A program made the position numbers and the translations under genes. The notes under the pieces were generated by a model. It had not been told where the DNA came from, did no database searches, and saw nothing but the letters and a program-made list of their open reading frames with translations. This document shows positions 5,021-38,318 of a stretch of 64,000 nucleotides of DNA, piece after piece (positions within the stretch are counted from its first letter, which is position 1; each line of letters starts with the position of its first letter). The stretch comes from a virus (taxonomy: Duplodnaviria > Heunggongvirae > Uroviricota > Caudoviricetes). The stretch is taken from IMG/VR virus record IMGVR_UViG_3300010429_001387, positions 1 to 64,000 of that record; one strand, 5' to 3'.

Positions 5021-5883
5021 TATTTCATGATCTTTAACAGGACTTTAGGCTTATCAGTTGTAATGAATTCAAAAATAACAGCGTCCTTAACTTCTTTAGT
5101 TTCAGTATGCCAATACCCTGCTTTTTGAAGTCCTTCCGCAACAAGATTAGCTATATCTTCGGGATGATCAATCGTAACTTCTTCATTGATGGATTCTTTG
5201 ATAAGTGAAATGGCTTTAGGTACTAATACCATTTTAAGATACACCATCTTAACATCTTCATCAGGATCAAGTTTAGAAGGATCGACAAAATCTTCCAATG
5301 AACTAAGAGCATCAATCATTTCATCATCTGTGGGCCATTCATTAGGAATCTTACCTGATTCAACTGCATCTCGAACAGCTTTGTTATCGTCTGGAGTAAG
5401 TTCTTCCATCTCACCCACTAGCTCAAGAACACCTTCAGTTAATGTTTTAATTACTTTCTCTTCATTGTCATCTTTGTTAGGGACTTTACCTTCTTTAACA
5501 ACCTTCTCGACTAATTCAGAAGAACAAAATGTACATTTACTTTCATTACTCCGAAATGTCTTAAAACAGGCATTACAAAGATAAAGATCAGACTTCTTAT
5601 TTTCTTTAGCCGCAGCTTTAGGCTTGGGATTTTGTGTATCTTTATCCGGAACTTCTTTCCAAGTCTTGTCATTTTTGAGCTTCGGCTTTGCTTTAGGACC
5701 ATTTAACTCCTGGTCAGAATAGTCTTCCATACCAATTTCTTCAGGAGTATTTTCGGGTTTTTTATCAGCAGGAGTCTGTTGTGGAACTTCAATAAGCTCG
5801 ATCTTTGTTTCTTCAATATCTAATCCAGCTTTCTTAAAAGCGTCATCCTCTCGCATTATATTAAGCAATCCCGTGAATTCCAT
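5020..5883 (-). CDS. Acidic protein with a zinc-ribbon and the 'EGKVPNKDDNEEKVIKTL' motif
   Basis: Contains 'CNACFKTFRSNESKCTFCSS' (CxxC...CxxC). It carries the same 16-aa motif, on a near-identical 47-bp DNA segment, as the giant ORF at 16361..20101. Confidence 0.55.
   Translation of the reverse strand: MEFTGLLNIMREDDAFKKAGLDIEETKIELIEVPQQTPADKKPENTPEEIGMEDYSDQELNGPKAKPKLKNDKTWKEVPDKDTQNPKPKAAAKENKKSDLYLCNACFKTFRSNESKCTFCSSELVEKVVKEGKVPNKDDNEEKVIKTLTEGVLELVGEMEELTPDDNKAVRDAVESGKIPNEWPTDDEMIDALSSLEDFVDPSKLDPDEDVKMVYLKMVLVPKAISLIKESINEEVTIDHPEDIANLVAEGLQKAGYWHTETKEVKDAVIFEFITTDKPKVLLKIMK
5447..5493. repeat. Dispersed 47-bp near-identical segment. Other copies are at 18513..18559 and 19815..19861
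   Basis: 'ttaattactttctcttcattgtcatctttgttagggactttaccttc' occurs three times in two different genes, with one mismatch in the third copy. Confidence 0.85.
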
Positions 5884-29399: not shown

Positions 29400-30221
29400 T
29401 TACCTCTCTTGTTTCTCACTACACTTTGCGATACCTAAAGCTATTCTATCAATTGGAACAATAAAGCTTAATCCATTGGTTCCTCGATACAACCAAGAAA
29501 CGATACCAATTAAATCTCCGTTTGAATCAAAAACTGGACCTCCAGAATTTCCTGGATTTGTCGGAGCATCAATTTGAATATACTTTTGCACAGCACCTAT
29601 CGGATCTGCAACGTCAACATTTAAGCGACTCACAATACCAGATGTAACAGTAAATGTTAGATTAAAAGGCATTCCAACGACAACGATTGTATCTCCAACC
29701 TGTGTTGCATTTTGTGGATGTTTAATTTCAACCGGCTCCAAATTCAACCCATCTGGGTCAATCCAAATAATTCCCACATCTGGATTTCGACTTCCTGCAT
29801 TTGATGTGTATAAGACTTCGCGTTCGACACCATCAGCAAAAACAACCCAAAATCTATTATACGGGCCTGGTGTAACATCATCAACAACATGAGCAGCAGT
29901 TAAAATTATTCCATTCGGATCAATAACCACCCCCGATGCACAACACCTAAAATTCTCGCCGGTCAGTGGATTGATTTGGTCATACTCTATGTATACTGTT
30001 ACAACCGAAGATTTTCGATATTTCGCAACATTCTGAACTGCATTTTCTTTTGCATACAAATAATTTAAACCATAAAAAACATAATCAAATTGTACTTCCG
30101 TAACGAGATTTGAATAATGTAAATCTTCCTTAATTGATTCAATCCTCATTGATGTTAAAACTGTGTTTACTGCCAATCCTGCCAACAGAACCACAACCAT
30201 CCATGTTCGTGCTCTCTTCAT
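29400..30221 (-). CDS. Trypsin-like (S1/HtrA-type) serine protease with an N-terminal membrane anchor or signal
   Basis: N-terminal hydrophobic 'WMVVVLLAGLAVNTVL'. Has the catalytic motifs 'TAAHVV', 'DVGIIWI' and 'GNSGGPVF'. Confidence 0.6.
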   Translation of the reverse strand: MKRARTWMVVVLLAGLAVNTVLTSMRIESIKEDLHYSNLVTEVQFDYVFYGLNYLYAKENAVQNVAKYRKSSVVTVYIEYDQINPLTGENFRCCASGVVIDPNGIILTAAHVVDDVTPGPYNRFWVVFADGVEREVLYTSNAGSRNPDVGIIWIDPDGLNLEPVEIKHPQNATQVGDTIVVVGMPFNLTFTVTSGIVSRLNVDVADPIGAVQKYIQIDAPTNPGNSGGPVFDSNGDLIGIVSWLYRGTNGLSFIVPIDRIALGIAKCSEKQER

Positions 30222-30256
30222 CGTACTGCTCCTTAAATTAAATTAATATGGTTTTA

Positions 30257-30469
30257 CTATTGTTTTTGCAGATAAATATCCTTCCTCTGCTTTTCAATTT
30301 CAGAATTATATTTAGCAATCCATTCATCACGCTCATCTAACACATTGCCTAACACATTTAAAAGATTACGTGTTGTCCGCTCTTCCTCACTCAACCAATG
30401 TTTTAAAACTCCTATAGTAATAAATTCCAGTACAGCAACACCAGCAAGTAAATATAGTCCGAAAGACAT
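30257..30469 (-). CDS. Small membrane protein (70 aa)
   Basis: N-terminal transmembrane segment 'MSFGLYLLAGVAVLEFITIGVL'. Confidence 0.35.
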   Translation of the reverse strand: MSFGLYLLAGVAVLEFITIGVLKHWLSEEERTTRNLLNVLGNVLDERDEWIAKYNSEIEKQRKDIYLQKQ

Positions 30470-30658
30470 TTTCTTTCTCCTAATTAATTTTGATCATTTT
30501 CGAAAACATATTAACGTATATCAATGTTCCATTTTCTGTTCTTAAATGCCAAGAATCACCTGTTGCCACTGGAATGTGTAAAACTTCCAAATCAAACTCA
30601 GCATCTATATTTTCAAAGAACACATTTACTTTATCACCAATTTGGATTTTATCGGTCA

Positions 30659-30925
30659 TTAAAAGAAACTCCTGCCGTCACACAATTCAACTAAAACATC
30701 TCCATGACAAGGCAATGGAGCACACCAACATCCTAATACGTTTCCTTTTAGCTCATGCAAGTCCTGCAATAGAACAGGTTGCTGCAAAATCCATTCTCTG
30801 TACTTTTGTATGACTTCTTGTCTTGTTCCATCTTTTCCAATTGTAAATGGATTTCCCCATTTTGAAGGACGACCAATGTAGACATCATATGGCTGTTTTT
30901 GACAATGTACCACTTTAGTTGGCAT
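30659..30925 (-). CDS. DUF4326-like protein
   Basis: 'VVHCQKQPYDVYIGRPSKWGNPF...GCWCAP...CHGDVL' matches the pattern I recall for the DUF4326 family. Confidence 0.4.
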   Translation of the reverse strand: MPTKVVHCQKQPYDVYIGRPSKWGNPFTIGKDGTRQEVIQKYREWILQQPVLLQDLHELKGNVLGCWCAPLPCHGDVLVELCDGRSFF

Positions 30926-30927
30926 TT

Positions 30928-31110
30928 TTAATAAACAGTTATTACAACTTTTCGAACTGTCTCGCTAACTGGTTTACAATCTCTAGCTTTTCTGCGAGTA
31001 GAATAAAATCTCGCATTGAAAATATTTGATGTATATTCGTAGTCGTCGTTCCAGTCCAAATACTTGCCGTTCTTTTTGGATTTAAGTACCCAACCAGTTT
31101 GGGATTTCAT
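30928..31110 (-). CDS. Small protein related to the 'MKAWV...YWDD' family (60 aa)
   Basis: 'GWVLKSKKNGKYLDWNDDYEY' resembles the tandem pair at 26703..27079. Confidence 0.4.
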   Translation of the reverse strand: MKSQTGWVLKSKKNGKYLDWNDDYEYTSNIFNARFYSTRRKARDCKPVSETVRKVVITVY

Positions 31111-31430
31111 GATTTCTCCTCTGCAACAATATTTACTTTATACACATCAATATTTTTAGGAATTATTTGCACAACTCCGGTATCAATTGCAACACAATAA
31201 ACAACATCATCTCGTAATGTAAGTTTAGTTTCAACATCCTTAAACATATCAATTTGGGATAAATCAATTACCTCTAAACATTGCTGCTTTTCAATTAAGC
31301 GAAATGTTTCGCCTATTTCAATTTCACTTGCTTTGCATTTCACTCGATTCTTCAGATGAACTTCCATGATTCTTTTTCTCCTTAGACTTTTTCTTCTTCT
31401 TACGATGCTCACAAGTATGACAAAAATCAT
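31107..31430 (-). CDS. Hypothetical protein (107 aa)
   Basis: ORF that overlaps the downstream gene. Confidence 0.4.
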   Translation of the reverse strand: MIFVILVSIVRRRKSLRRKRIMEVHLKNRVKCKASEIEIGETFRLIEKQQCLEVIDLSQIDMFKDVETKLTLRDDVVYCVAIDTGVVQIIPKNIDVYKVNIVAEEKS

Positions 31431-31544
31431 AATTATTAACGTGTTTACATTGAGAACATGGATCCATCTTCATATATTCTCTTTCTAAAAACACATTAAA
31501 GAAAAAACGGAGAAGATGAAATCCTCTCCGTCAAAGCAGGAAGA

Positions 31545-31799
31545 CTATTCCTGCTGAGGCTTGCCTTTTAATTCTCTGTGCTTTACATCATGCATTACAA
31601 CAGCCGCTGATTCCTTTGCATCTTTTTCAGTACGACCAGCAGCCAGATACATATTTACGATGACTTGCTTAACTTCTTTATCTTCTTTGCCTTCAACTAA
31701 AAGCTGTCTTGCTGTTTTGATAACACCACGAACTGCCGTTTGCCTTACTTTAACTGGTTGTTCTTGAATAGTTTCTTCACTCATTTTCATTCTCCTCAA
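31545..31799 (-). CDS. Hypothetical protein (84 aa)
   Basis: ORF on the coding strand. Confidence 0.4.
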   Translation of the reverse strand: MRRMKMSEETIQEQPVKVRQTAVRGVIKTARQLLVEGKEDKEVKQVIVNMYLAAGRTEKDAKESAAVVMHDVKHRELKGKPQQE

Positions 31800-32148
31800 T
31801 TATAGGTTGTAATTCATCTTTGGAACTATGGTTATTATACTTATCAATTAAATAAAGTAAATGGTTTGCAAAACGTTTAGTTGTTGCTCCATTAAGACAA
31901 ACCATATCATTAAACGGTGTTCCAGTCCGCAATATTTTCCAAGCCCAACGCAATCTGTCTTTCCAACCCAAACGATTATTACTGTATGGAGCCATTCCCC
32001 AAAATGCAATATTTACATGTGGACCACCTGCAATATCTTCATACCATGGATCGTCTTCAGCAACGATTACTAATCCCTCCCCACCACAATCACAAGGGAA
32101 TACCTTTAATACGGGAAGGGTACCAAATGCACCTTTTGAATCTTTCAT
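31777..32148 (-). CDS. Hypothetical protein (123 aa)
   Basis: ORF that overlaps its neighbours. Confidence 0.4.
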   Translation of the reverse strand: MKDSKGAFGTLPVLKVFPCDCGGEGLVIVAEDDPWYEDIAGGPHVNIAFWGMAPYSNNRLGWKDRLRWAWKILRTGTPFNDMVCLNGATTKRFANHLLYLIDKYNNHSSKDELQPIIEENENE

Positions 32149-32690
32149 TTTCGAAAATCCCTTTCAATCATCAATAATTTCCCCAACATGTTTAATCCTT
32201 GATCTTGACATTTTTGACAGAAACAACTTCCCCAAAAATTATCATGCCAATAATTACCTTCTTTTAACAATCCATCCGTTTGAAGCAATAACTCAACTAA
32301 GTCCGCATGTTGCTCGAATTTACAATAAACCAATTCAGCCATTACAGATAATTTAATTGCTTCCCAATCTGATCGGATAGGAAGGGTTTTACCTTTTGCT
32401 TTAGCCCTTGCTGCTGTAGATAATTGTAAGATAGCATCTGCATAATCTAAATTTTTTGCAGCTTGATATGCATGTTCAACTGTCGGCCATGTTCGTTGCT
32501 GCCAAATAATTGGGCTATGATAAAAATTACTTAAAAATCTGTATTCATTTTTGAATTCTAAAATCATTTCAATCGCCAAATAATATACACAAATCCAATT
32601 GCATCTATTATCAATTTTGCTGCTAACCAAACTAAAAAGACATAATCTGTGGATTTCATTTCTTCTTCCTAGGTGCTCGAGTTCTTCCAC
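32145..32690 (-). CDS. NADAR (YbiA-like) family protein
   Basis: 'YRFLSNFY...VEHAYQAAK...LKEGNYWHDNFWG' matches the NADAR signature (FLSNF, EHxYQxxK, EGN...WG). Confidence 0.6.
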   Translation of the reverse strand: MEELEHLGRRNEIHRLCLFSLVSSKIDNRCNWICVYYLAIEMILEFKNEYRFLSNFYHSPIIWQQRTWPTVEHAYQAAKNLDYADAILQLSTAARAKAKGKTLPIRSDWEAIKLSVMAELVYCKFEQHADLVELLLQTDGLLKEGNYWHDNFWGSCFCQKCQDQGLNMLGKLLMIERDFRK

Positions 32691-32868
32691 AATAAACTTC
32701 GATGTTTAAATGCATACAAAAACCACCACACATGTGTCCATTATCATGTTCTCCCAACGAATCAGCTTGATGTGGAATAGCATGTGGACATTTTAAACAT
32801 TGCTCGTTATGAAACTTACCTATATACCATTTATACTTTGGTTTGGGATTATGCTTGGTCAAAATCAT
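32656..32868 (-). CDS. Small Cys/His-rich protein (70 aa)
   Basis: Multiple C/H residues ('CLKCPHAIPHQ...HMCGGFCMH'). Confidence 0.35.
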   Translation of the reverse strand: MILTKHNPKPKYKWYIGKFHNEQCLKCPHAIPHQADSLGEHDNGHMCGGFCMHLNIEVYCGRTRAPRKKK

Positions 32869-32983
32869 TCCTTTGATTTATCACGACACCAATTTTTAGA
32901 CTTCTCTTTCTTCTTGTCTTTAAAGACATTTGTTGGAGGAGGCATTTTACCTCTAGGAAGTTTTGGTTTATTCTTTTTCATAA

Positions 32984-33055
32984 CTCCCCAGGAAAGAATC
33001 GAACTTTCATTTTGCGGTTAACAGCCGCACGTTCTACCATTGAACCACCAGGGAA
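32984..33055 (-). tRNA. tRNA-Asn: tRNA-Asn (GTT)
   Basis: Manual fold gives acceptor TCCCTGG/CTGGGGA, D stem GTTC/GAAC, anticodon stem TGCGG/CCGCA with loop CTGTTAA, and T arm GAAAG-TTCGATT-CTTTC. No CCA is encoded. Confidence 0.65.
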
Positions 33056-33056
33056 G

Positions 33057-33129
33057 GTGACCACTGGAATTCGAATCCAGACACCAGGAGCCACAATCCT
33101 GTGCTCTAACCAGTTGAGCTATGGCCACA
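33057..33129 (-). tRNA. tRNA-His: tRNA-His (GTG)
   Basis: Acceptor GTGGCCA/TGGTCAC, D stem GCTC/GAGC, anticodon stem CAGGA/TCCTG with loop TTGTGGC, T arm CTGGA-TTCGAAT-TCCAG, and discriminator C. No encoded G-1 and no CCA. Confidence 0.7.
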
Positions 33130-33131
33130 GT

Positions 33132-33214
33132 GACGGTGAAGAGATTCGAACTCTTACACCCTGAAGGGTATTGGTTCTTGAAACCAATGCGTCTGCCAAT
33201 TCCACCACACCGTC
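33132..33214 (-). tRNA. tRNA-Leu: tRNA-Leu (CAA), class II with a long variable arm
   Basis: Acceptor GACGGTG/CACCGTC, anticodon stem TTGGT/ACCAA with loop TTCAAGA, variable arm CCCT..AGGG, and T arm AAGAG-TTCGAAT-CTCTT. Confidence 0.7.
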
Positions 33215-33311
33215 AAAACTCCTAAGATCTTCACGTCTGCCATATCACTAAGGCTATGTAAAATGTAGTCTACCAAACTCATTTTCCTTACAGACCTTAT
33301 AAGATATCTTA

Positions 33312-33384
33312 GGAATTAAATAGCGGTGGATGGATTTGAACCATCGACCTTCTCCTTATGAGGGAGCTAAGCTAACCACTGCTC
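33312..33384 (-). tRNA. tRNA-Met: tRNA-Met (CAT); could be the initiator or Ile-lysidine type
   Basis: Acceptor AGCGGTG/CACCGCT, D stem GAGC/GCTT, anticodon loop CTCATAA, and T arm GATGG-TTCAAAT-CCATC. Confidence 0.65.
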
Positions 33385-33392
33385 TACACCGC

Positions 33393-33465
33393 TAAAATAT
33401 TGGACCGTGGAGAGACTCGAACTCTCATTCTGAACATTGCAAGTGTTCCGCTTTCCCAATTAAGC
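33393..33465 (-). tRNA. tRNA-Ala: tRNA-Ala (TGC)
   Basis: Acceptor GGGCGTG/CACGGTC with a G3·G70 mismatch, D stem GCTT/AAGC, anticodon stem GAACA/TGTTC with loop CTTGCAA, and T arm GAGAG-TTCGAGT-CTCTC. Confidence 0.55.
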
Positions 33466-33480
33466 TACACGCCCATAAAA

Positions 33481-33745
33481 TTGAATGTTCAGCCCTGACC
33501 CATCATACCGGCTTTCTCCGTCGAGCAGCCACGTCGTCGACAACACCTGCCAGGAAGAGGTTGTTCTCATAAACATTCAATTATTTTTAAAGCTCAGCGG
33601 GGCAAAACCCTATCAAGCCGTCCAGCGGCACTGAGCTATTATAATGAATCATTTGGCAGGGATTTACACCACTGCATATGGACCGCGTATCGGCTGTTCG
33701 ATTGTAATAGGATACGGCTGATCAGGCTACCACCCATTACATCCC
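33481..33745. ncRNA. GC-rich ORF-free structured island, a candidate ncRNA or small inserted element, flanked by 10-bp direct repeats
   Basis: About 55% GC against an AT-rich background. No ORF of 60 aa or more. Nested stems are visible (AGCTCAG...CTGAGCT enclosing GCCG/CGGC; GTCGA...TCGAC). The direct repeat CCCTGACCCA sits at 33484 and 33734. Confidence 0.35.
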
Positions 33746-33799
33746 TGACCCACTTAACCGTTGCAAGCGTCTACTTATTCCGCCACAAATGATTCTATT

Positions 33800-33988
33800 T
33801 TATTCTTCAAACTCATCAACAAATGTATCAAAGTCATCATAATTAAACTTATTCAAAACAGCTTTGATTTTCATCCTTGATTGCTTATTTTGCATCTTAC
33901 GTTGTGTTGCATTAGGCTTTACACGACTTTCACTATCCACCACGTCATCAAACTGTTCTCTACGAGGTCTGCGATTTGTACTACTCAT
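33800..33988 (-). CDS. Small basic protein (62 aa)
   Basis: ORF on the coding strand, Arg/Lys-rich. Confidence 0.35.
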   Translation of the reverse strand: MSSTNRRPRREQFDDVVDSESRVKPNATQRKMQNKQSRMKIKAVLNKFNYDDFDTFVDEFEE

Positions 33989-33999
33989 GTTACTTACCT

Positions 34000-34296
34000 T
34001 TACGTTCCTTTCTCAACAATTGCAAGAATATCATCAAATTCCAACAACAAACACTCACCATCATCCATTTCTAATGTTGTTCCACCTTGTGTAGAAATCA
34101 ACACCTTATCTCCAACAGCACATGGCTGTGGAGCTTGTACACCTGAAGGATATGTCTTTCCTGGACCAATGGCAAGTACATCTGCTATCGTTCCAAGAAT
34201 CTTTGCACTTGCCGGAAGAACAATTCCTCCTTCGGTCTTTGTCTTTGGAGGCTCACGTTTTACAATTACTTTATTAAAAGACGGTTTAAATTTCAA
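34000..34296 (-). CDS. groES: GroES-family co-chaperonin
   Basis: 'KVIVKREPPKTKTEGGIVLPASA...DVLAIGPGK...GDKVLIS...ILAIVE' matches the GroES pattern along its full length at 98 aa. Confidence 0.65.
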   Translation of the reverse strand: MKFKPSFNKVIVKREPPKTKTEGGIVLPASAKILGTIADVLAIGPGKTYPSGVQAPQPCAVGDKVLISTQGGTTLEMDDGECLLLEFDDILAIVEKGT

Positions 34297-34317
34297 TTTG
34301 CTTTCTCCTTAAAACAA

Positions 34318-34503
34318 TTATTCCATTTCAATTAAAGCATGATTATCTCTCTCACGAAAGAGACGATCCATTGCTTGTGCTCGATTAACAAACTCTGTAT
34401 TATACTGATGCTTATTCCGAAAATTAATCGAAACTTCTGAATCAACACCATAGCGATGCAACAAAGCTGTGTAATCAATGATGAGATGTCCTGCTGCTTT
34501 CAT
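34318..34503 (-). CDS. Hypothetical protein (61 aa)
   Basis: Short ORF between GroES and tRNA-Pro. Confidence 0.3.
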   Translation of the reverse strand: MKAAGHLIIDYTALLHRYGVDSEVSINFRNKHQYNTEFVNRAQAMDRLFRERDNHALIEME

Positions 34504-34531
34504 TATGAACCTTTCAAATATATTTCGTTAA

Positions 34532-34607
34532 TCGGAATGGCAGGATTCGAACCTGCGATTACGTGGTCCCAGGCCACGTGGCTTAAACCAAACTAGCCCA
34601 CATTCCG
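34532..34607 (-). tRNA. tRNA-Pro: tRNA-Pro (TGG)
   Basis: Acceptor CGGAATG/CATTCCG, D stem GGCT/AGCC, anticodon stem CGTGG/CCACG with loop CCTGGGA, and T arm GCAGG-TTCGAAT-CCTGC. Confidence 0.65.
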
Positions 34608-34621
34608 AATATTATACTTGT

Positions 34622-34918
34622 TTAAACAATGATTTTTGTTAATTCAATTTCTATATACGGATAATGATTGCACGCTCCAGACTCAAAATAAACCTCATCC
34701 CGGCAGAAACAATGTGTAACTTTACAAACTTTCAGACGTTTTCCTCCTCTAGATTCAATCCATTCCCCTTCTCTTGGAACAGCAACAAACCGTTCCGGCC
34801 AACATTCCATTCTATATTCATCAAGATTAGTTCGACAACGACCACGAATCATTTTATAATTCTCCTCTCTTAAAATTTTAAAACCGAGCACCCTACTCAC
34901 TAGATGTTCTGGCGGCAC
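34622..34918 (-). CDS. Cys/His-rich hypothetical protein (98 aa)
   Basis: ORF containing 'CKVTHCFCRDE...GACNHY'. Confidence 0.4.
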   Translation of the reverse strand: MPPEHLVSRVLGFKILREENYKMIRGRCRTNLDEYRMECWPERFVAVPREGEWIESRGGKRLKVCKVTHCFCRDEVYFESGACNHYPYIEIELTKIIV

Positions 34919-34948
34919 ATCATTGCTTTCAGGTGCCTCGAAGCAGAA

Positions 34949-35020
34949 TAGACCTGGTTGGATTTAAACCAACAACGACACCCTTATAAGGGGTGTGCTC
35001 TATCGTTGAGCTACAGGTCA
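34949..35020 (-). tRNA. tRNA-Ile: tRNA-Ile (TAT)
   Basis: Acceptor TGACCTG/CAGGTCT with a 1-72 mismatch, D stem GCTC/GAGC, anticodon stem CACCC/GGGTG with loop CTTATAA, and T arm GTTGG-TTTAAAT-CCAAC. Confidence 0.55.
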
Positions 35021-35021
35021 T

Positions 35022-35092
35022 TTGACCTACATGGATTTGAACCAGGATCGCACGATTATCGGTCGTGTACTCTACCATTGAGCTATAGGTCA
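35022..35092 (-). tRNA. tRNA-Ile: tRNA-Ile (GAT)
   Basis: Perfect acceptor TGACCTA/TAGGTCA, D stem GCTC/GAGT, anticodon stem CACGA/TCGTG with loop CCGATAA, and T loop TTCAAAT. Confidence 0.6.
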
Positions 35093-35093
35093 C

Positions 35094-35164
35094 CAACTCC
35101 ATTAGGATTTGAACCTAAACTGGGAGATTCAAAATCTCCAGTGCTGCCGTTACACTATGGAGTT
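35094..35164 (-). tRNA. tRNA-Gln: tRNA-Gln (TTG)
   Basis: Acceptor AACTCCA/TGGAGTT, anticodon stem GGAGA/TCTCC with loop TTTTGAA, and T arm TTAGG-TTCAAAT-CCTAA. Confidence 0.65.
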
Positions 35165-35376
35165 AAAAATACAGAATGAAAAACACAACCGAATTCTATT
35201 CAGGGTTAATTAAAATTTTGCGATTCGTAAACATGTCCCTTATCAACTCTTCTTATTCTCAAAAATATACCAAGACCGCATTTTCGCCCGCACGAACGAG
35301 GAATTTGTAACCTTTAAATATTGGCTTTGTTCCTCCTCAGCCTTTCATTCTGTATTAAATTTTCAAAGAAACTAAA

Positions 35377-35450
35377 TAGCCCTGATCAGATTTGAACTGA
35401 CGTCTTTGGCTTGAAGGGCCAATATCCTAGACCGACTAGAAGACAGGGCC
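35377..35450 (-). tRNA. tRNA-Glu: tRNA-Glu (TTC)
   Basis: Acceptor GGCCCTG/CAGGGCT, anticodon stem TTGGC/GCCAA with loop CCTTCAA, and T arm GTCAG-TTCAAAT-CTGAT. The D-arm geometry is slightly non-canonical. Confidence 0.5.
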
Positions 35451-35454
35451 AAAA

Positions 35455-35658
35455 TCAGATTAATTGAATAATCTGTTTAAATATTGAATAAGCTAATTCA
35501 TCATCTCGTTCTTTTTCCGCTTCAAGCAGTTGATCAAACAAGTGATCAAATTCCTTTTGAGTATCTTGTTCAGTTTTAATTGTTCTTTCTTCCTGTTTAT
35601 ACATATGGAACACATTTACCTCGAAAGGAAATATCCAATTCAACAACTTCATAATCAT
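35455..35658 (-). CDS. Hypothetical protein (67 aa)
   Basis: Short ORF downstream of the portal gene. Confidence 0.35.
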   Translation of the reverse strand: MIMKLLNWIFPFEVNVFHMYKQEERTIKTEQDTQKEFDHLFDQLLEAEKERDDELAYSIFKQIIQLI

Positions 35659-35770
35659 TACTGGAATTGTAATATCCTAGATGAAAATCCCAAATCAAAG
35701 GTGTATGTTTGAAATATCTAACACATTCCAAACAACCATTTACCAACAAACCATACCACATTTTACCATC

Positions 35771-35805
35771 CCTTTGCAGATTGAAAATTAGGGGCTACAA
35801 CAAGT
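35771..35805 (-). terminator. Candidate intrinsic terminator downstream of the portal gene
   Basis: 8-bp perfect stem GGGGCTAC/GTAGCCCC with a 5-nt loop. On the transcribed strand it is followed by 'UAAUUUUCAAU'. Confidence 0.4.
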
Positions 35806-35921
35806 AGCCCCATCTTCTTGGAATCCAGGCCCATGTTGAGATCATGAATGACATCTCCATGGCTGGCTCATACTTATATTATAGCTTATAATCAGAGAAA
35901 CCAAAATGGAAAATTATAAAA

Positions 35922-37883
35922 TTACACTTTCTTTTCTTCTGCTATTTCAGTTACACAAGCATCACCATATTTATCCATCCAGGTTAGATAATCTCGCTGC
36001 TCCAAGAAATTGATGTCAATTGGATTCTCAGCCGGATTATCAATTATCATTATACGTTCATTCAATTTGTCCTTGGTATCTTCAGTAACATGTGAAGACA
36101 TTACAGCTGGTAGGCATGCATACACATCAGTATTGAATCTACCTTCATTTAATCTTGGACATCTTCGCACTTTAGCCTCAATAATTGTAGTGGCGTCAAA
36201 ATCATCTTCTACACTAGAAATTAATCGAATTGGTTTCTTTTCTTCTTCTTTTTTAACTGGTGGAACAGCCGGAACGGGACCACCAGCTGGGGGCACGGCT
36301 CCAGGTTGTTCCATTGGAGGCATTGCCTCAGCAGCAGCTTTTGCTGCAGCAGCTTCTGCCTCTTTAGCAATAACATCTTTGGATTTGTAAAAATCTTCGA
36401 TACGAAAATCTTCTAATCGCAGGATCTTATCATTATAATACTCAAACACCTTTTCGGGATCCAATTTACGTCCACTAACTTTCTTTAGCGTCGACATAAA
36501 TGATCCTAATGTTTTCAATCCAGTTTCCAAACCTTTGCGAATTGCATTTTCTTCTGCGGTAGAAGTTTCTGCCATTTGAATTTGGAACAATTGTGGATCT
36601 GGATCCATCCCTTTATATGCAAGATGGATCTGACACATACGAACTAAACCATTAATTAGTGCTCTTTGGATTCTTCTCGCAGATCTAGCAAATCGAATAC
36701 CTAACTGTTCAATTGCTTCGGATCCTAATGATCCTGTTGCCTCTTTTACATAACCACCTAACAATGATGGTGGCGTTGCCAATGCTGTCGCTAATTGATT
36801 TCGAAGATTATCAATATCAACAATCCAACGAATGTCAGCTTCCCCACCAACTTTCTCATAAGTAAGATCATTAATATCACCCCAAACAGGAATGAATATA
36901 TCTTCGATAGCAGAGATAGATGAATTCTTCGAATCGAAAGACGCTGAACCTTCTCTTGTATCAATAGCTCTTGCTCTTGTTATAAGAGTTGCATATTGAT
37001 CCATAAGAGACGAAACAGCTTCCATATTTGTACCATCAACTTTATACTTCCAGATGTATTTGATAATACCTCTTGTAACACGAGCAAGTAACAAACTATC
37101 TTCTGCTAAGCGAAGTCGTTTGTATGATGGCAAGGCATTAAGGAGCAATGATGTCCCATATCGTGTTGTCACTTGTCTTGTTTCAGATGTTGTGATAAGA
37201 TTAACACTTCTCATCTCCGAATATTGATTTTCAGCAAATCGAGAACGTCTCTTAATACCACCCAACAATCTCATGTGTACATATTTCCAAGGTGGAATTA
37301 ATGTGTTCTTCTCTGTAGATTGATTACCCGAAAAACCTTGCAACGATTTATAAAACCCTACGAGTATACCTTCATATTCAACACGAGAAGTATTCATGGG
37401 ATGTTCTGCATCATTAATAGAAACGATACCTAATCCCGGCATACCATTTAATTCAATAAACAAATCACCATATGCAGCCAATGTAAAGGCCCAATCATGA
37501 ATCCTTTCTTCTATCGAAATCCTGTCAAACAGATCATTTAATTCCCGCTGGTAGGTTTCCGAATCAGCTTGCACCCAGCAAGTCGCACCATGAATTGGAG
37601 AAAATGGTGTACTTGTTCCGGCGTATAATTCTATAGCAGGACCCACCATCCAATGGGTAATTGCCCGTTCAACTTCCTGGTAAATATTCCACCGATCCCA
37701 ACTAATTTCAATATCTGCATTAATTGACCGTTGAACCATTTCCGCAGTGATACCTGCTTTTTTGATCATGCGGATAACTTCTTCGGTAGCATTTTCGCCT
37801 TTGACTACCTCAGTCGGAATCATCGGAGGTTTGGGTGTGAGATCAGGAAGAAGTGAATTAAATGGGTTTTGGGTATAAGGCAT
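35922..37883 (-). CDS. Portal protein (candidate)
   Basis: 653 aa. The C-terminal tail is Ala/Pro/Glu-rich and low in complexity. Size and composition are typical of myovirus portals. This is my recollection of the pattern only. Confidence 0.45.
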   Translation of the reverse strand: MPYTQNPFNSLLPDLTPKPPMIPTEVVKGENATEEVIRMIKKAGITAEMVQRSINADIEISWDRWNIYQEVERAITHWMVGPAIELYAGTSTPFSPIHGATCWVQADSETYQRELNDLFDRISIEERIHDWAFTLAAYGDLFIELNGMPGLGIVSINDAEHPMNTSRVEYEGILVGFYKSLQGFSGNQSTEKNTLIPPWKYVHMRLLGGIKRRSRFAENQYSEMRSVNLITTSETRQVTTRYGTSLLLNALPSYKRLRLAEDSLLLARVTRGIIKYIWKYKVDGTNMEAVSSLMDQYATLITRARAIDTREGSASFDSKNSSISAIEDIFIPVWGDINDLTYEKVGGEADIRWIVDIDNLRNQLATALATPPSLLGGYVKEATGSLGSEAIEQLGIRFARSARRIQRALINGLVRMCQIHLAYKGMDPDPQLFQIQMAETSTAEENAIRKGLETGLKTLGSFMSTLKKVSGRKLDPEKVFEYYNDKILRLEDFRIEDFYKSKDVIAKEAEAAAAKAAAEAMPPMEQPGAVPPAGGPVPAVPPVKKEEEKKPIRLISSVEDDFDATTIIEAKVRRCPRLNEGRFNTDVYACLPAVMSSHVTEDTKDKLNERIMIIDNPAENPIDINFLEQRDYLTWMDKYGDACVTEIAEEKKV

Positions 37884-37970
37884 GTTCAGATTCCCTTCTT
37901 AAGAAATATCCTCAAAATTTACGAGATAACTGTTCTTAATTAAATAAATGTTTTTAAATTATACATCGGA

Positions 37971-38318
37971 TCAAAACAATATGACCTCAACAGACACATT
38001 ATTCCTTTTAGCTAAATCAATTGTTGATTTAGTACCTTTTGATTTACCATCCCAGAATGCTAAAATGAAATCTGAATCTAACACAATCAACTGATTTCTT
38101 AAGAAACCAGCAGATTTTCCAAATGTTTTCCAATCAGGAAGATGTATTGTTTTTCCAAGATTGTTTTCGTTGGCAAATAGTTCGGCTAATTGATCTGCTC
38201 CTTTAGCTCCTCCTGATATTAAATGGAAGGGTATTAACAGCGTTAAATAACTTTCTAAAAGAGAATAGTTATTGAAACTCCTAGATCCAACAACCCCAAT
38301 CTTAGGGATTTCCATCAA
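37971..38318 (-). CDS. SLOG/DprA-like Rossmann-fold protein
   Basis: 'GVVGSRSF...ISGGAKGADQLAE' is a GGxxGxD-type SLOG/LOG/DprA-like nucleotide-binding motif. Confidence 0.4.
   Translation of the reverse strand: MMEIPKIGVVGSRSFNNYSLLESYLTLLIPFHLISGGAKGADQLAELFANENNLGKTIHLPDWKTFGKSAGFLRNQLIVLDSDFILAFWDGKSKGTKSTIDLAKRNNVSVEVILF

What the first reader, a model, noticed from the sequence alone, without database searches (positions are those of the whole stretch)
33481..33745. GC-rich, ORF-free, highly structured 250-bp island next to the tRNA cluster, bounded by 10-bp direct repeats (CCCTGACCCA)
This island is sharply GC-enriched relative to its surroundings, and no ORF in the track covers it. 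It lies between tRNA-Ala and a small gene. It contains nested perfect stems: AGCTCAG...CTGAGCT enclosing GCCG-TCCA-CGGC, and GTCGA...TCGAC. Identical 10-mers sit at 33484 and 33734. This pattern fits either a structured ncRNA, in the way large ncRNAs associate with phage tRNA arrays, or a small inserted element with target-site duplication. It does not fold as a tRNA, and I could not match RNase P or tmRNA motifs by eye.
Basis: seen in the sequence. Interest (0 to 1): 0.6.

Follow-up and report, generated by a model that had tools for sequence, protein, structure and literature searches.

The report
Anticodon-less tRNA-like RNA in phage
The GC-rich gap beside the phage's tRNA genes encodes structured RNAs, the largest being a tRNA-leucine-derived molecule that has lost its anticodon arm and belongs to a widespread phage RNA family found neither in Rfam nor in the papers searched.

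Summary
The island is real but larger than reported: window 33475-33799, about 325 nt, 46.8% GC, with no credible ORF. It reads on the minus strand, like the tRNAs, and has three stem-closed modules.

Module A (33649-33792) is a tRNA-like RNA. It has a 7-bp acceptor stem, a tRNA-Leu(UAA)-type D arm, a T arm with loop UGUAAAU, and an 89-nt insert where the anticodon arm should be. Pattern searches recovered about 120 distinct homologues in viral contigs. Unannotated copies occur in cultured Firmicutes phages (SPP1, phi3T, Listeria LP-101, Lactobacillus Sha1, Enterococcus EFDG1). Acceptor and T stems covary strongly, and a D-loop/T-loop tertiary pair covaries (G-C 70, A-U 34, G-U 0). Rfam has no model for it.

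Module B (33591-33637) is a small Y-shaped RNA conserved, with five compensatory changes, in two related phages. Module C (33479-33582) is unique to this phage.

The 10-mers exist, 9 nt from the stated positions, but they lie inside modules and are not target-site duplications.

Inferred mechanism: tRNA-processing enzymes cut module A from the tRNA transcript, and it acts as a non-decoding tRNA mimic. Function is untested.

The parts
33649..33792 (-). Module A: tRNA-Leu-derived, anticodon-less tRNA-like RNA (144 nt). The acceptor stem extends to a 10-bp helix spanning 33646-33795.
   Evidence: It fits the family architecture found in about 120 homologues. CM R1 hits 33749-33792 at 31.2 bits and 33656-33678 at 14.7 bits. 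Its scaffold is 100% identical in relative L035 while the flanks are about 88% identical.
33786..33792 (-). Acceptor stem, 5' strand UCAUUUG. It pairs 7/7 with 33649-33655 (CAAAUGA).
   Evidence: This stem covaries across the family, and all 7 pairs show double-sided changes.
33767..33785 (-). U8 plus the D arm, UGGCGGAAUAAGUAGACGC. This is the tRNA-Leu(UAA)-type D arm, with A at the position that pairs with the T loop.
   Evidence: The same 18-19-mer occurs in all family members. It also occurs, in the G variant, in genuine tRNA-Leu(UAA) genes.
33676..33766 (-). Variable central domain ('cargo', about 89 nt) replacing the anticodon arm. It contains one CCCTGACCCA copy (33743-33752 on the plus strand).
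   Evidence: L035 has an unrelated 88-nt sequence between identical flanks. Across the family this domain is 24-233 nt long with no shared sequence.
33656..33675 (-). T arm GCAG(U)GG-UGUAAAU-CCCUGC: a 6-bp stem with one bulged U and a 7-nt T-loop-like loop.
   Evidence: The family loop is UG(U/C)AAAU. Loop position 3 covaries with D-loop position 18 of the alignment.
33591..33637 (-). Module B: a 47-nt Y-shaped mini tRNA-like RNA. It has an 8-bp closing stem that includes a U.G pair, a 4-bp hairpin, the linker UYGAUA, and a 3-bp hairpin.
   Evidence: Homologues are at L035 2484-2545 and L036 4225-4292. All 15 pairs are kept in all three sequences, with 5 compensatory double changes. CM R2 finds only these three in 870 kb.
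33479..33582 (-). Module C: a 104-nt hairpin-closed element (11-bp perfect closing stem) of unknown nature. It contains the other CCCTGACCCA copy (33493-33502 on the plus strand).
   Evidence: z = -2.2. It is absent from L035, where tRNA-Asp and tRNA-Val occupy the place, and from L036. It has no similarity to any fetched locus.
33402..33474 (-). tRNA-Ala(UGC), the first of five tRNAs downstream of the island on the same strand.
33800..33988 (-). 62-aa ORF whose stop codon lies 7 nt upstream of module A.

Best explanation
The island is a run of three small structured RNA genes on the minus strand, transcribed together with the phage's tRNA array.

Shown. The main one, module A (33649-33792), belongs to a large family of tRNA-Leu-derived tRNA-like RNAs carried mainly by phage contigs, plus three bacterial MAG contigs. 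These RNAs keep the parts of a tRNA that build the L-shaped core: a 7-bp acceptor stem, U8, a Leu-type D arm, a T arm, and a D-loop/T-loop pair. The anticodon arm is replaced by a linker or by an unrelated structured insert of 24-233 nt.

Inferred. Because it has tRNA-like ends, lacks an encoded CCA and sits at tRNA spacing inside arrays, RNase P probably cuts it out at the 5' end and RNase Z at the 3' end, like a CCA-less pre-tRNA. It would then persist as a stable, non-decoding tRNA mimic whose conserved scaffold presents or protects a variable domain.

Shown. Module B is a second, lineage-specific mini tRNA-like RNA.

Open. Module C is an unexplained hairpin specific to this phage.
For: Family membership:
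- AAGTAGACGC N75-105 GGTGTAAATCC gave 9 viral and 3 genome hits.
- D-arm-only patterns gave 55 and at least 120 more.
- After parsing, 120 distinct members remain.

Structure:
- 97.8% of cells are paired, and 13 of 17 pairs show double-sided changes.
- The covariation score is 0.698, against 0.189 in shuffles (0/500) and at most 0.14 when slid.
- 94 of 164 real instances have 13/13 perfect pairs, against 1 of 164 with shuffled downstream sequence.

Tertiary pair: G-C 70, A-U 34, A-C 9, G-U 0, Fisher p = 7e-21.

tRNA-Leu origin: genuine tRNA-Leu(UAA) genes share the 18-nt D arm. R1 also scores the window's own tRNA-Leu at 22 bits.

No anticodon arm: the shortest members have a 24-nt unstructured linker, or a hairpin with a 5-6-nt loop.

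tRNA-like gene behaviour:
- 30 of 120 lie within 300 nt of a tRNA or tmRNA, all on the same strand, and 12 lie within 30 nt.
- Examples are L081 and L070, 2-6 nt from their neighbouring tRNAs.
- 1 of 120 encodes CCA. The discriminator is A in 58% and the next base is U in 58%.

Selection in this lineage: 65 scaffold nt are identical between the window and L035, where flanks are 87.8% identical (P about 2e-4), while the centre is swapped.

Strand: a conserved G.U or U.G pair in each of modules A and B would be an A.C mismatch on the plus strand.
Against: - No transcript data were available for this phage or for any family member.
- Processing by RNase P and RNase Z is inferred from architecture only.
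- The tRNA-like fold is not the thermodynamic optimum. It gives -36.2 kcal/mol when constrained and -42.5 when free. Whole-island z-scores are unremarkable.
- The window copy is atypical, with a bulged U in the T stem and discriminator U.
- Members were selected by a pairing criterion, which inflates the percentage of cells paired (control).
- The first base pair is U-A or A-U in most members rather than G-C.
- Most members (77 of 120) have no tRNA in the fetched locus. In cultured temperate Firmicutes phages and some viral contigs the element sits between a late-activator gene and HNH/terS. A cis role in late-operon transcripts is therefore equally conceivable.
- The function of the variable domain is unknown.
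Confidence: 0.65

Rival explanations
1. Purely cis-acting 'punctuation'. The tRNA-like scaffold serves only as a cleavage signal for RNase P and RNase Z, or as a stabiliser, separating or defining the ends of neighbouring RNAs. These would be tRNAs here and late-operon mRNAs in temperate phages. The excised piece has no function of its own, so its centre drifts freely.
For: Only the parts that RNase P, RNase Z and the CCA-adding enzyme need are conserved (acceptor and T stack plus elbow), while the centre is free. In Sha1, LP-101 and D6E, and in IMG/VR contigs, the element lies in the leader between RinA/ArpU-type activators and HNH/terS. One member contains a complete nested tRNA-Ile, which would be cut out and split the scaffold.
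Against: The D-loop and T-loop sequences are almost invariant and differ from canonical tRNA in a fixed way (G55, a 6-bp T stem). A generic processing signal would not need this. In the window, the upstream ORF and the downstream tRNAs need no extra signal. Cargo lengths of 89 and 88 nt in two relatives, with structured folds, hint at constraint. In Sha1 and SPP1 a terminator-like hairpin follows the element, as for a stand-alone small RNA gene.
Confidence: 0.2
2. A small mobile element (MITE-like) inserted next to tRNA-Ala, with CCCTGACCCA as its target-site duplication.
For: Two identical 10-mers lie 250 nt apart. The modules are closed by 10-11-bp perfect inverted repeats. Relatives differ in content here.
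Against: The 10-mers lie inside modules A and C, not at indel boundaries. L035 lacks both copies, and its differences are a centre swap plus absence of module C, not a clean excision between repeats. The pair pattern occurs in 21 IMG/VR contigs, none similar to the island. A 10-mer repeat arises in 3.7% of shuffles. The 'inverted repeats' are RNA stems that covary in homologues.
Confidence: 0.02
3. Decayed tRNA genes or a neutral spacer: leftovers of tRNA turnover in the array, with no present function.
For: tRNA content differs between the window, L035 and L036 at this spot. Module C occupies the place of tRNA-Asp and tRNA-Val and has no homologue. The GC content equals that of tRNA genes.
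Against: For module A: the scaffold is 100% conserved against 88% flanks, there is family-wide covariation, and a conserved non-canonical T loop is incompatible with decay. For module B: there are 5 compensatory changes and no disruptive ones. Rfam's tRNA model finds nothing in the island at E <= 1. The idea remains possible for module C only.
Confidence: 0.05
4. A real, decoding tRNA-Leu gene interrupted by an intron, such as a group I intron like that of cyanobacterial tRNA-Leu(UAA).
For: The D arm is identical to that of tRNA-Leu(UAA), the tRNA that classically hosts a group I intron (background knowledge). The insert sits where the anticodon arm should be.
Against: No Rfam group I or other intron hit appears at E <= 1. 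Family centres are as short as 24-32 nt and lack any 5-bp stem with a 7-nt anticodon loop. The T loop has G55 instead of U and a 6-bp T stem. Neither ARAGORN nor Rfam calls a tRNA.
Confidence: 0.03
5. A DNA-level signal (promoter region, origin, packaging site) rather than an RNA.
For: A TATAAT-like box is conserved between modules A and B. In CPR-phage relatives the element lies between an AAA_24 ATPase and a replication protein O homologue. In some siphophages it lies near the genome ends or terS.
Against: Compensatory changes keep G-U wobble pairs on one strand only. The orientation always matches the tRNAs. The promoter scan finds no site inside the island above background.
Confidence: 0.05

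Closest known systems
Bacteriophage T4 stable RNAs species 1 and 2 (rnaC, rnaD)
   Same: They are 139- and 119-nt stable non-coding RNAs placed head-to-tail with tRNA genes in a phage tRNA array, 1-6 nt apart. rnaC ends in a T arm followed by an acceptor-like 3' strand. From memory, they are processed with the tRNAs and their function remains unknown.
   Different: There is no sequence or CM similarity: R1 gives 6 bits, on the T arm only. T4 rnaC has a canonical GGUUCGAAUCC T loop and no Leu-type D arm. This is an analogue, not a family member.
Canonical tRNA-Leu(UAA) (class II tRNA)
   Same: It shares an identical 18-nt D arm (UGGCGGAAUAGGUAGACG), a 7-bp acceptor stem, U8, a T arm, and a G-C pair of the G19-C56 type. 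The discriminator is A in 58% of members.
   Different: The family has no anticodon arm, a T loop UG(U/C)AAAU instead of UUCRANY, and a 6-bp T stem. It is not detected by ARAGORN or Rfam RF00005.
tmRNA tRNA-like domain
   Same: The 5' and 3' ends form an acceptor and T-arm module around a large non-tRNA insert. In Enterococcus phage EFDG1 and in L069 a phage tmRNA gene directly abuts a family member.
   Different: No tag ORF or pseudoknot architecture was seen, and neither ARAGORN nor Rfam gives a tmRNA hit on the element. The family has a true D stem, which tmRNA lacks (background knowledge).
Bacterial Y RNA-like RNAs (YrlA, RF02553)
   Same: They are non-coding tRNA mimics, also encoded by some phages (read in PMC12282133, which cites Chen et al. 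2014).
   Different: The YrlA model hits only real tRNAs here, at 23-25 bits against a gathering score of 69. The topology differs: in YrlA the tRNA-like part is internal and the ends form the Ro-binding stem (from memory). The window was not checked for a Ro/Rsr gene.
Engineered 'tRNA scaffold' for recombinant RNA expression (Ponchon and Dardel)
   Same: The design is the same: the anticodon arm of a tRNA is replaced by an arbitrary RNA, so that tRNA-processing enzymes trim the chimera and the tRNA fold stabilises it. The method is mentioned in PMC3753655, found; the details are from memory.
   Different: It is synthetic. Nothing here shows that the natural inserts are 'payloads'.

Membership tests
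tRNA-Leu-derived anticodon-less tRNA-like family (defined here) | 7-bp acceptor stem formed by the 7 nt before U8 and the 7 nt after the T arm | tested here: met
   UCAUUUG/CAAAUGA pairs 7/7. All 7 family pairs covary.
tRNA-Leu-derived anticodon-less tRNA-like family (defined here) | U8 plus D arm UGGCGGAAUA(A/G)GUAGACG(C) | tested here: met
   Exact match at 33767-33785, minus strand.
tRNA-Leu-derived anticodon-less tRNA-like family (defined here) | 6-bp T stem with 7-nt loop UG(U/C)AAAU, directly followed by the acceptor 3' strand | tested here: met
   The loop UGUAAAU and the stem are present. The window and L035 carry one bulged U in the 5' strand, GCAG(U)GG/CCCUGC.
tRNA-Leu-derived anticodon-less tRNA-like family (defined here) | The D-loop base (alignment column 18) is complementary to T-loop position 3 | tested here: met
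   The window has A with U. The family has G-C 70, A-U 34, A-C 9 and G-U 0.
tRNA-Leu-derived anticodon-less tRNA-like family (defined here) | Centre without an anticodon stem-loop, ending in YAU before the T stem | tested here: met
   The window centre is 89 nt and ends in UAU. The family ends in CAU (62) or UAU (49) out of 120.
tRNA-Leu-derived anticodon-less tRNA-like family (defined here) | Significant score with a covariance model of the scaffold | tested here: met
   R1 gives 31.2 bits (E 9e-7) on the 5' half and 14.7 bits on the T arm. The hit is split because the model lacks the 89-nt insert.
Canonical tRNA (RF00005) | Anticodon arm with a 5-bp stem and a 7-nt loop | tested here: not met
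   The island has no tRNA hit at E <= 1 and ARAGORN gives none. Short family members have no such arm.
Canonical tRNA (RF00005) | T loop U54-U55-C56-R-A | tested here: not met
   The loop is UGUAAAU, with G at position 55 and U at 56.
tmRNA (RF00023 / permuted) | tRNA-like domain plus tag reading frame and pseudoknots, detected by ARAGORN or Rfam | tested here: not met
   No hit in the window. tmRNA is detected next to, not on, the EFDG1 member.
Group I intron | Match to the Rfam Intron_gpI model and flanking exon halves | tested here: not met
   No hit at E <= 1. The flanks are a complete ORF and a complete tRNA.
Transposable mini-element with target-site duplication | Direct repeats at the exact boundaries of an insertion that a relative lacks | tested here: not met
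   The indel boundaries against L035 and L036 do not coincide with the 10-mers, and L035 has neither copy.
Y RNA-like (YrlA) | Match to RF02553 | tested here: not met
   Only real tRNAs give weak hits.
Y RNA-like (YrlA) | Co-occurrence with a Ro/Rsr gene | not tested
   The window's proteins were not screened for a TROVE domain.
Leucine-accepting tRNA-like RNA | A73 discriminator, 3' CCA and charging by LeuRS | not testable with these tools
   The discriminator is A in 69 of 120 members but U in the window copy. CCA is not encoded. Charging needs an enzymatic assay.

The most novel reading that the evidence does not exclude
Phages carry a natural 'tRNA scaffold'. It is a tRNA-Leu core stripped of its anticodon arm that host enzymes trim, CCA-tail and possibly leucylate. 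Phages would use it to display interchangeable RNA domains, for example decoys or binders aimed at host tRNA-directed defences or the translation apparatus. The conserved D and T arms would double as recombination handles for swapping cargo between phages. This would also give T4's long-unexplained stable RNAs a functional counterpart in genetically tractable phages (SPP1, phi3T).
Probability: 0.15. Interest if true: 0.85.

Novelty: new variant of a known kind. Interest (0 to 1): 0.7.

Why it matters
tRNA mimics are known (tmRNA, Y RNA-like RNAs, T4 stable RNAs, plant-virus tRNA-like structures). This particular family appears to be uncurated. It has no Rfam 15 model, and the copies checked in cultured phage records (phi3T, SPP1, LP-101, Sha1, D6E, EFDG1) carry no RNA annotation. 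Ten full-text searches found no description of it.

It occurs in model phages such as SPP1 and phi3T, where deletion and RNA-end mapping are straightforward.

It occupies two telling places. One is inside tRNA arrays of large phages. The other is the leader between the late-gene activator and the HNH/terminase genes of temperate Firmicutes phages.

Understanding it could explain what non-decoding 'extra' RNAs in phage tRNA clusters are for, a question open since the T4 species 1 and 2 RNAs were sequenced. For genome annotation, it gives a name to a recurrent 'empty' GC-rich gap.

Tried and rejected
- Rfam. An E-value scan of window 30000-38000 gave only tRNAs and weak YrlA hits on tRNAs. Scans of relatives, 12 family loci and 6 cultured-phage loci found no model covering the element.
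- blastn of the island against INPHARED matched only the tRNA-Ala part.
- The pattern CCCTGACCCA..CCCTGACCCA in IMG/VR gave 21 hits, none related to the island.
- The exact 20-mer of the window's T arm gave nothing in IMG/VR. An 18-mer in JGI metagenomes gave 17 chance or unrelated hits, including an unrelated conserved motif.
- Relatives were sought through proteins. GroES in IMG/VR gave only about 30% identity. The portal gave one 54% relative, L034, which lacks tRNAs and the island; its GC-rich stretch is coding. The 62-aa ORF recovered only itself and the L035 homologue.
- Ideas rejected by eye or test for the island: SRP RNA, RNase P RNA, 6S RNA and a T-box leader all lack Rfam support.
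- No sigma-70-like promoter or terminator site was found inside the island.
- Neighbour-gene enrichment found no single protein partner for the family, only context classes.
- The highly abundant unannotated RNAs reported near tRNA genes of Listeria phage CKA15 (PMC12282133) could not be linked to the family. P100 coordinates did not correspond, and the lead was dropped.
- The SPP1 re-annotation paper does not mention an RNA between genes 9 and 11.
- No homologues of module C or of either cargo were found in 1.9 Mb of fetched loci.
Full report
**1. What is at the coordinates**

Every gene and all ten tRNAs in this part of the window lie on the minus strand. The window comes from a large phage: it has a T4-type portal, a GroES homologue and two tRNA clusters, and an identical ENA contig exists.

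Between the stop codon of a 62-aa ORF (33800-33988) and tRNA-Ala (33402-33474) lies a 325-nt stretch, 33475-33799. It contains no credible ORF. Its GC content is 46.8%, against 37.3% for the window and 45.7% for the adjacent tRNA block.

The two CCCTGACCCA copies are at 33493-33502 and 33743-33752, 9 nt from the stated positions. An exact 10-mer repeat appears in 3.7% of shuffled islands.

Read on the minus strand, the island splits into three modules, each closed by a perfect stem:
- Module A: 33795-33646, closed by 10 bp.
- Module B: 33637-33591, closed by AGCUCAGU/GCUGAGCU.
- Module C: 33582-33479, closed by 11 bp.

Folding energy alone is unconvincing. The whole-island z-score is -0.63 on the minus strand, and modules B and C give about -2.2.

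**2. Known families do not match**

Rfam 15 at E <= 1 finds only the tRNAs. ARAGORN finds no tRNA or tmRNA in the island. INPHARED blastn matches only the tRNA-Ala part.

**3. Close relatives**

The phage lineage is rare. Searches with neighbouring proteins returned two useful relatives. L035 is a Logan contig whose GroES is 97% identical. L036 is a JGI contig whose GroES is 73% identical.

*L035.* The flanks are 86-90% identical to the window. Within module A, the first 33 nt and last 32 nt are 100% identical. The probability of this at 87.8% background identity is about 2e-4. The centre, however, is an unrelated sequence of almost the same length: 89 nt in the window and 88 nt in L035. Module B is conserved with compensatory changes. 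Module C is absent, and tRNA-Asp and tRNA-Val stand in its place.

*L036.* There is no island at this position. A small membrane-peptide ORF and a hairpin precede tRNA-Ala.

Neither 10-mer is present in L035, and no indel boundary coincides with them. The target-site-duplication idea therefore fails.

**4. The family behind module A**

I used the two conserved blocks as a gapped pattern: AAGTAGACGC N75-105 GGTGTAAATCC. It returned 9 IMG/VR contigs and 3 bacterial MAG contigs (one Clostridium, two Patescibacteria), where about one or two chance hits were expected.

All hits show the same plan:
- a 7-nt strand;
- UGGCGGAAUA(A/G)GUAGACG(C);
- a centre with no shared sequence;
- YAU;
- a 6-bp stem with loop UG(U/C)AAAU;
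- a 7-nt strand complementary to the first.

Parsing yielded 120 distinct members with centres of 24-233 nt, median about 76 nt.

*Covariation.* I aligned the scaffolds only, for 92 distinct sequences (A2):
- 97.8% of cells pair.
- 13 of 17 pairs carry double-sided changes.
- The covariation score is 0.698, against 0.189 in shuffles (0/500) and at most 0.14 with slid partners.

Members had been selected by a pairing criterion, so I ran a control. With shuffled downstream sequence, 1 of 164 instances reaches 13/13 perfect pairs, against 94 of 164 for the real sequences.

*Tertiary pair.* One D-loop position covaries with the third T-loop base: G-C 70, A-U 34, A-C 9 and G-U 0, Fisher p = 7e-21. 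This is what the G19-C56 elbow pair of tRNA would produce. The other invariants also match the tRNA core (comparison from background knowledge; columns):
- U8 and A14;
- A15 with the U that precedes the T stem;
- U at loop position 1 and A at loop position 5;
- G-C closing the T loop.

*Origin.* Genuine tRNA-Leu(UAA) genes in phage contigs carry the identical 18-nt D arm. The scaffold model R1 also scores the window's own tRNA-Leu at 22 bits. The family is therefore a tRNA-Leu derivative.

*Not a decoding tRNA.* The shortest members have a 24-nt unstructured linker, or one hairpin with a 5-6-nt loop, and none has an anticodon arm. Loop position 2 is G where tRNAs have U55. The T stem has 6 bp.

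*The window copy.* It meets every family feature. It carries one bulged U in the T stem, which it shares with L035.

**5. Where the family lives**

It occurs without any RNA annotation in cultured phages:
- Bacillus phi3T and SPbeta-like phages, after the HU-like gene yonN.
- SPP1, between genes 9 and 11.
- Listeria LP-101, flanked by the Rfam families rli62 and mcrA RNA.
- Lactobacillus Sha1, between rinA and HNH/terS.
- Geobacillus D6E.
- Enterococcus EFDG1, abutting a phage tmRNA in a tRNA array.
- D-arm BLAST matches under unannotated sequence (not inspected further) in Leuconostoc, Weissella, Paenibacillus and other Firmicutes phages.

Among the 120 members:
- 30 lie within 300 nt of a tRNA or tmRNA, all on the same strand, and 12 lie within 30 nt, which is array spacing.
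- Five loci carry two copies.
- One centre contains a complete tRNA-Ile, and several contain canonical T-arm hairpins.

The recurrent neighbours are RinA-like and DUF1492 (ArpU-type) activators upstream, and HNH, small terminase and Tad2-like genes downstream. A CPR-phage subgroup sits between an AAA_24 ATPase and a replication protein O homologue. No single protein partner emerges.

At the 3' end, CCA is encoded in 1 of 120 members. The discriminator is A in 58%, and the next base is U in 58%.

**6. Module B and module C**

The R1 search unexpectedly hit L036 4234-4286. This proved to be a homologue of module B, placed just before tRNA-Glu.

The three B sequences share this plan:
- an 8-bp closing stem that includes a conserved U.G pair;
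- a 4-bp hairpin, whose loop in L036 (UAAUGGGUAGA) resembles a D loop;
- the linker UYGAUA;
- a 3-bp hairpin.

All 15 pairs hold in all three sequences, with five compensatory double changes. A model of B finds nothing else in 870 kb of phage loci. B is therefore a lineage-specific mini tRNA-like RNA.

Module C has no homologue anywhere I could search. It may be a further RNA or debris from tRNA turnover.

**7. How it most likely works**

*Shown:*
- Module A has a conserved, covarying, tRNA-shaped core.
- The transcribed strand is the minus strand, because G.U pairs exist on that strand only.
- It behaves like a tRNA gene in placement and orientation.
- The scaffold is under strong purifying selection while the centre is freely replaced.

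*Inferred, from established knowledge of tRNA maturation:*
- RNase P, RNase Z and the CCA-adding enzyme recognise the acceptor and T stack and the elbow, not the anticodon arm.
- CCA-less precursors in Firmicutes are cut by RNase Z.
- The RNA is therefore probably excised like a CCA-less pre-tRNA, receives CCA, and persists as a non-decoding tRNA mimic that carries a variable domain.

*Open questions:*
- Whether the product acts in trans, or whether the element is only a processing or stabilising signal. The second reading is attractive for the late-operon leaders.
- Whether LeuRS charges the RNA. From memory, E. coli LeuRS needs neither the anticodon nor the variable arm, but it does need A73 and the D/T core. 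The window copy has U at that position, so charging is at best not universal.

**8. Comparison with known systems**

The nearest analogue is the pair of T4 stable RNAs, rnaC and rnaD. They are 139 and 119 nt and are appended to the T4 tRNA array, and rnaC has a T arm and an acceptor-like 3' end. They are not members, because R1 gives them 6 bits.

tmRNA, YrlA and canonical tRNA-Leu share parts of the design, but each fails a defining feature (see the membership table).

Ten full-text literature searches and two targeted readings found no description of this family. This is absence of evidence in the searchable library only.

**9. Verdict**

The ncRNA reading is right and the insertion/TSD reading is wrong.

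The island's main component belongs to a widespread and apparently uncurated family of tRNA-Leu-derived, anticodon-less tRNA-like RNAs found mainly in phage contigs. The family is a new variant of a known kind (tRNA mimics). It is worth follow-up because it occurs in tractable model phages.

Noticed in passing
L041, L043, L046 (9560-9760) and L049 (JGI/ENA metagenome contigs): These contigs share a conserved motif of about 130 nt, closed by CUAUACGCAaGCAGGG / CCCUGCcUGCGUAUAG. It happens to contain the same 18-mer, GUGGUGUAAAUCCCUGCC. Rfam found nothing there at E <= 1. It may be an undescribed structured RNA unrelated to the island.
   Followed up: partly
L035 2175-2318: An extra 47-aa ORF sits between the 63-aa ORF and the tRNA-like RNA. 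It is flanked by a duplicated GAGTTTGAGGAATA and is absent from the window, so it looks like a small gene insertion.
   Followed up: no
L035 about 2776-2850; L036 about 5790-5870: Directly after tRNA-Ala there is a tRNA-like sequence with a CUCAUAA anticodon loop (CAU) and an odd T arm (CUGGG-GGCGGUA-CCCAG). ARAGORN and Rfam do not call it. The window has a canonical tRNA-Met at this place.
   Followed up: no
L117 2145-2700 (Enterococcus phage EFDG1) and L069: A phage-encoded tmRNA gene (Rfam 140 bits in EFDG1) is followed within 0-3 nt by a member of the tRNA-like family, inside a tRNA array.
   Followed up: partly
L114 2312-2737 (Listeria phage LP-101): The leader between the ArpU-type regulator and the HNH gene holds three consecutive RNA elements: Rfam rli62, the new tRNA-like RNA, and the Rfam mcrA RNA motif. 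A terminator-like hairpin follows them.
   Followed up: partly
window 33215-33319 (minus): The 105-nt spacer between tRNA-Met and tRNA-Leu folds into a long hairpin closed by about 13 bp (-29.1 kcal/mol). It is about 86% conserved in L035.
   Followed up: no
window 35178-35361: An AT-rich insertion of about 184 nt lies between tRNA-Glu and tRNA-Gln. In L035 the two tRNAs are 11 nt apart.
   Followed up: no
L036 196-3702: The portal gene of this relative is 1168 aa and carries intein-splicing and HNH domains, so it is an intein-invaded portal.
   Followed up: no
L059 12931-14149; L063 2543-2614: Two twister-P5 ribozymes and a RAGATH-18 RNA lie within a few kb of family members.
   Followed up: no
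L177 5439-5580: This variant has the same Leu-type D arm and an 87-nt multi-hairpin centre, but a canonical GGUUCAAAUCC T loop and a 5-bp T stem. ARAGORN does not call it. It may be an intermediate between tRNA-Leu and the family.
   Followed up: partly
L015, L022, L024, L025 and L030 (IMG/VR): Five of the 21 contigs matching CCCTGACCCA..CCCTGACCCA have exactly the same 251-nt span. That suggests a repeated element of their own, unrelated to the island.
   Followed up: no
L120 3345-3623 and four or five other family loci: Tad2-like (Thoeris anti-defence 2) genes recur near family members, mostly downstream, in temperate-phage-type contexts.
   Followed up: no
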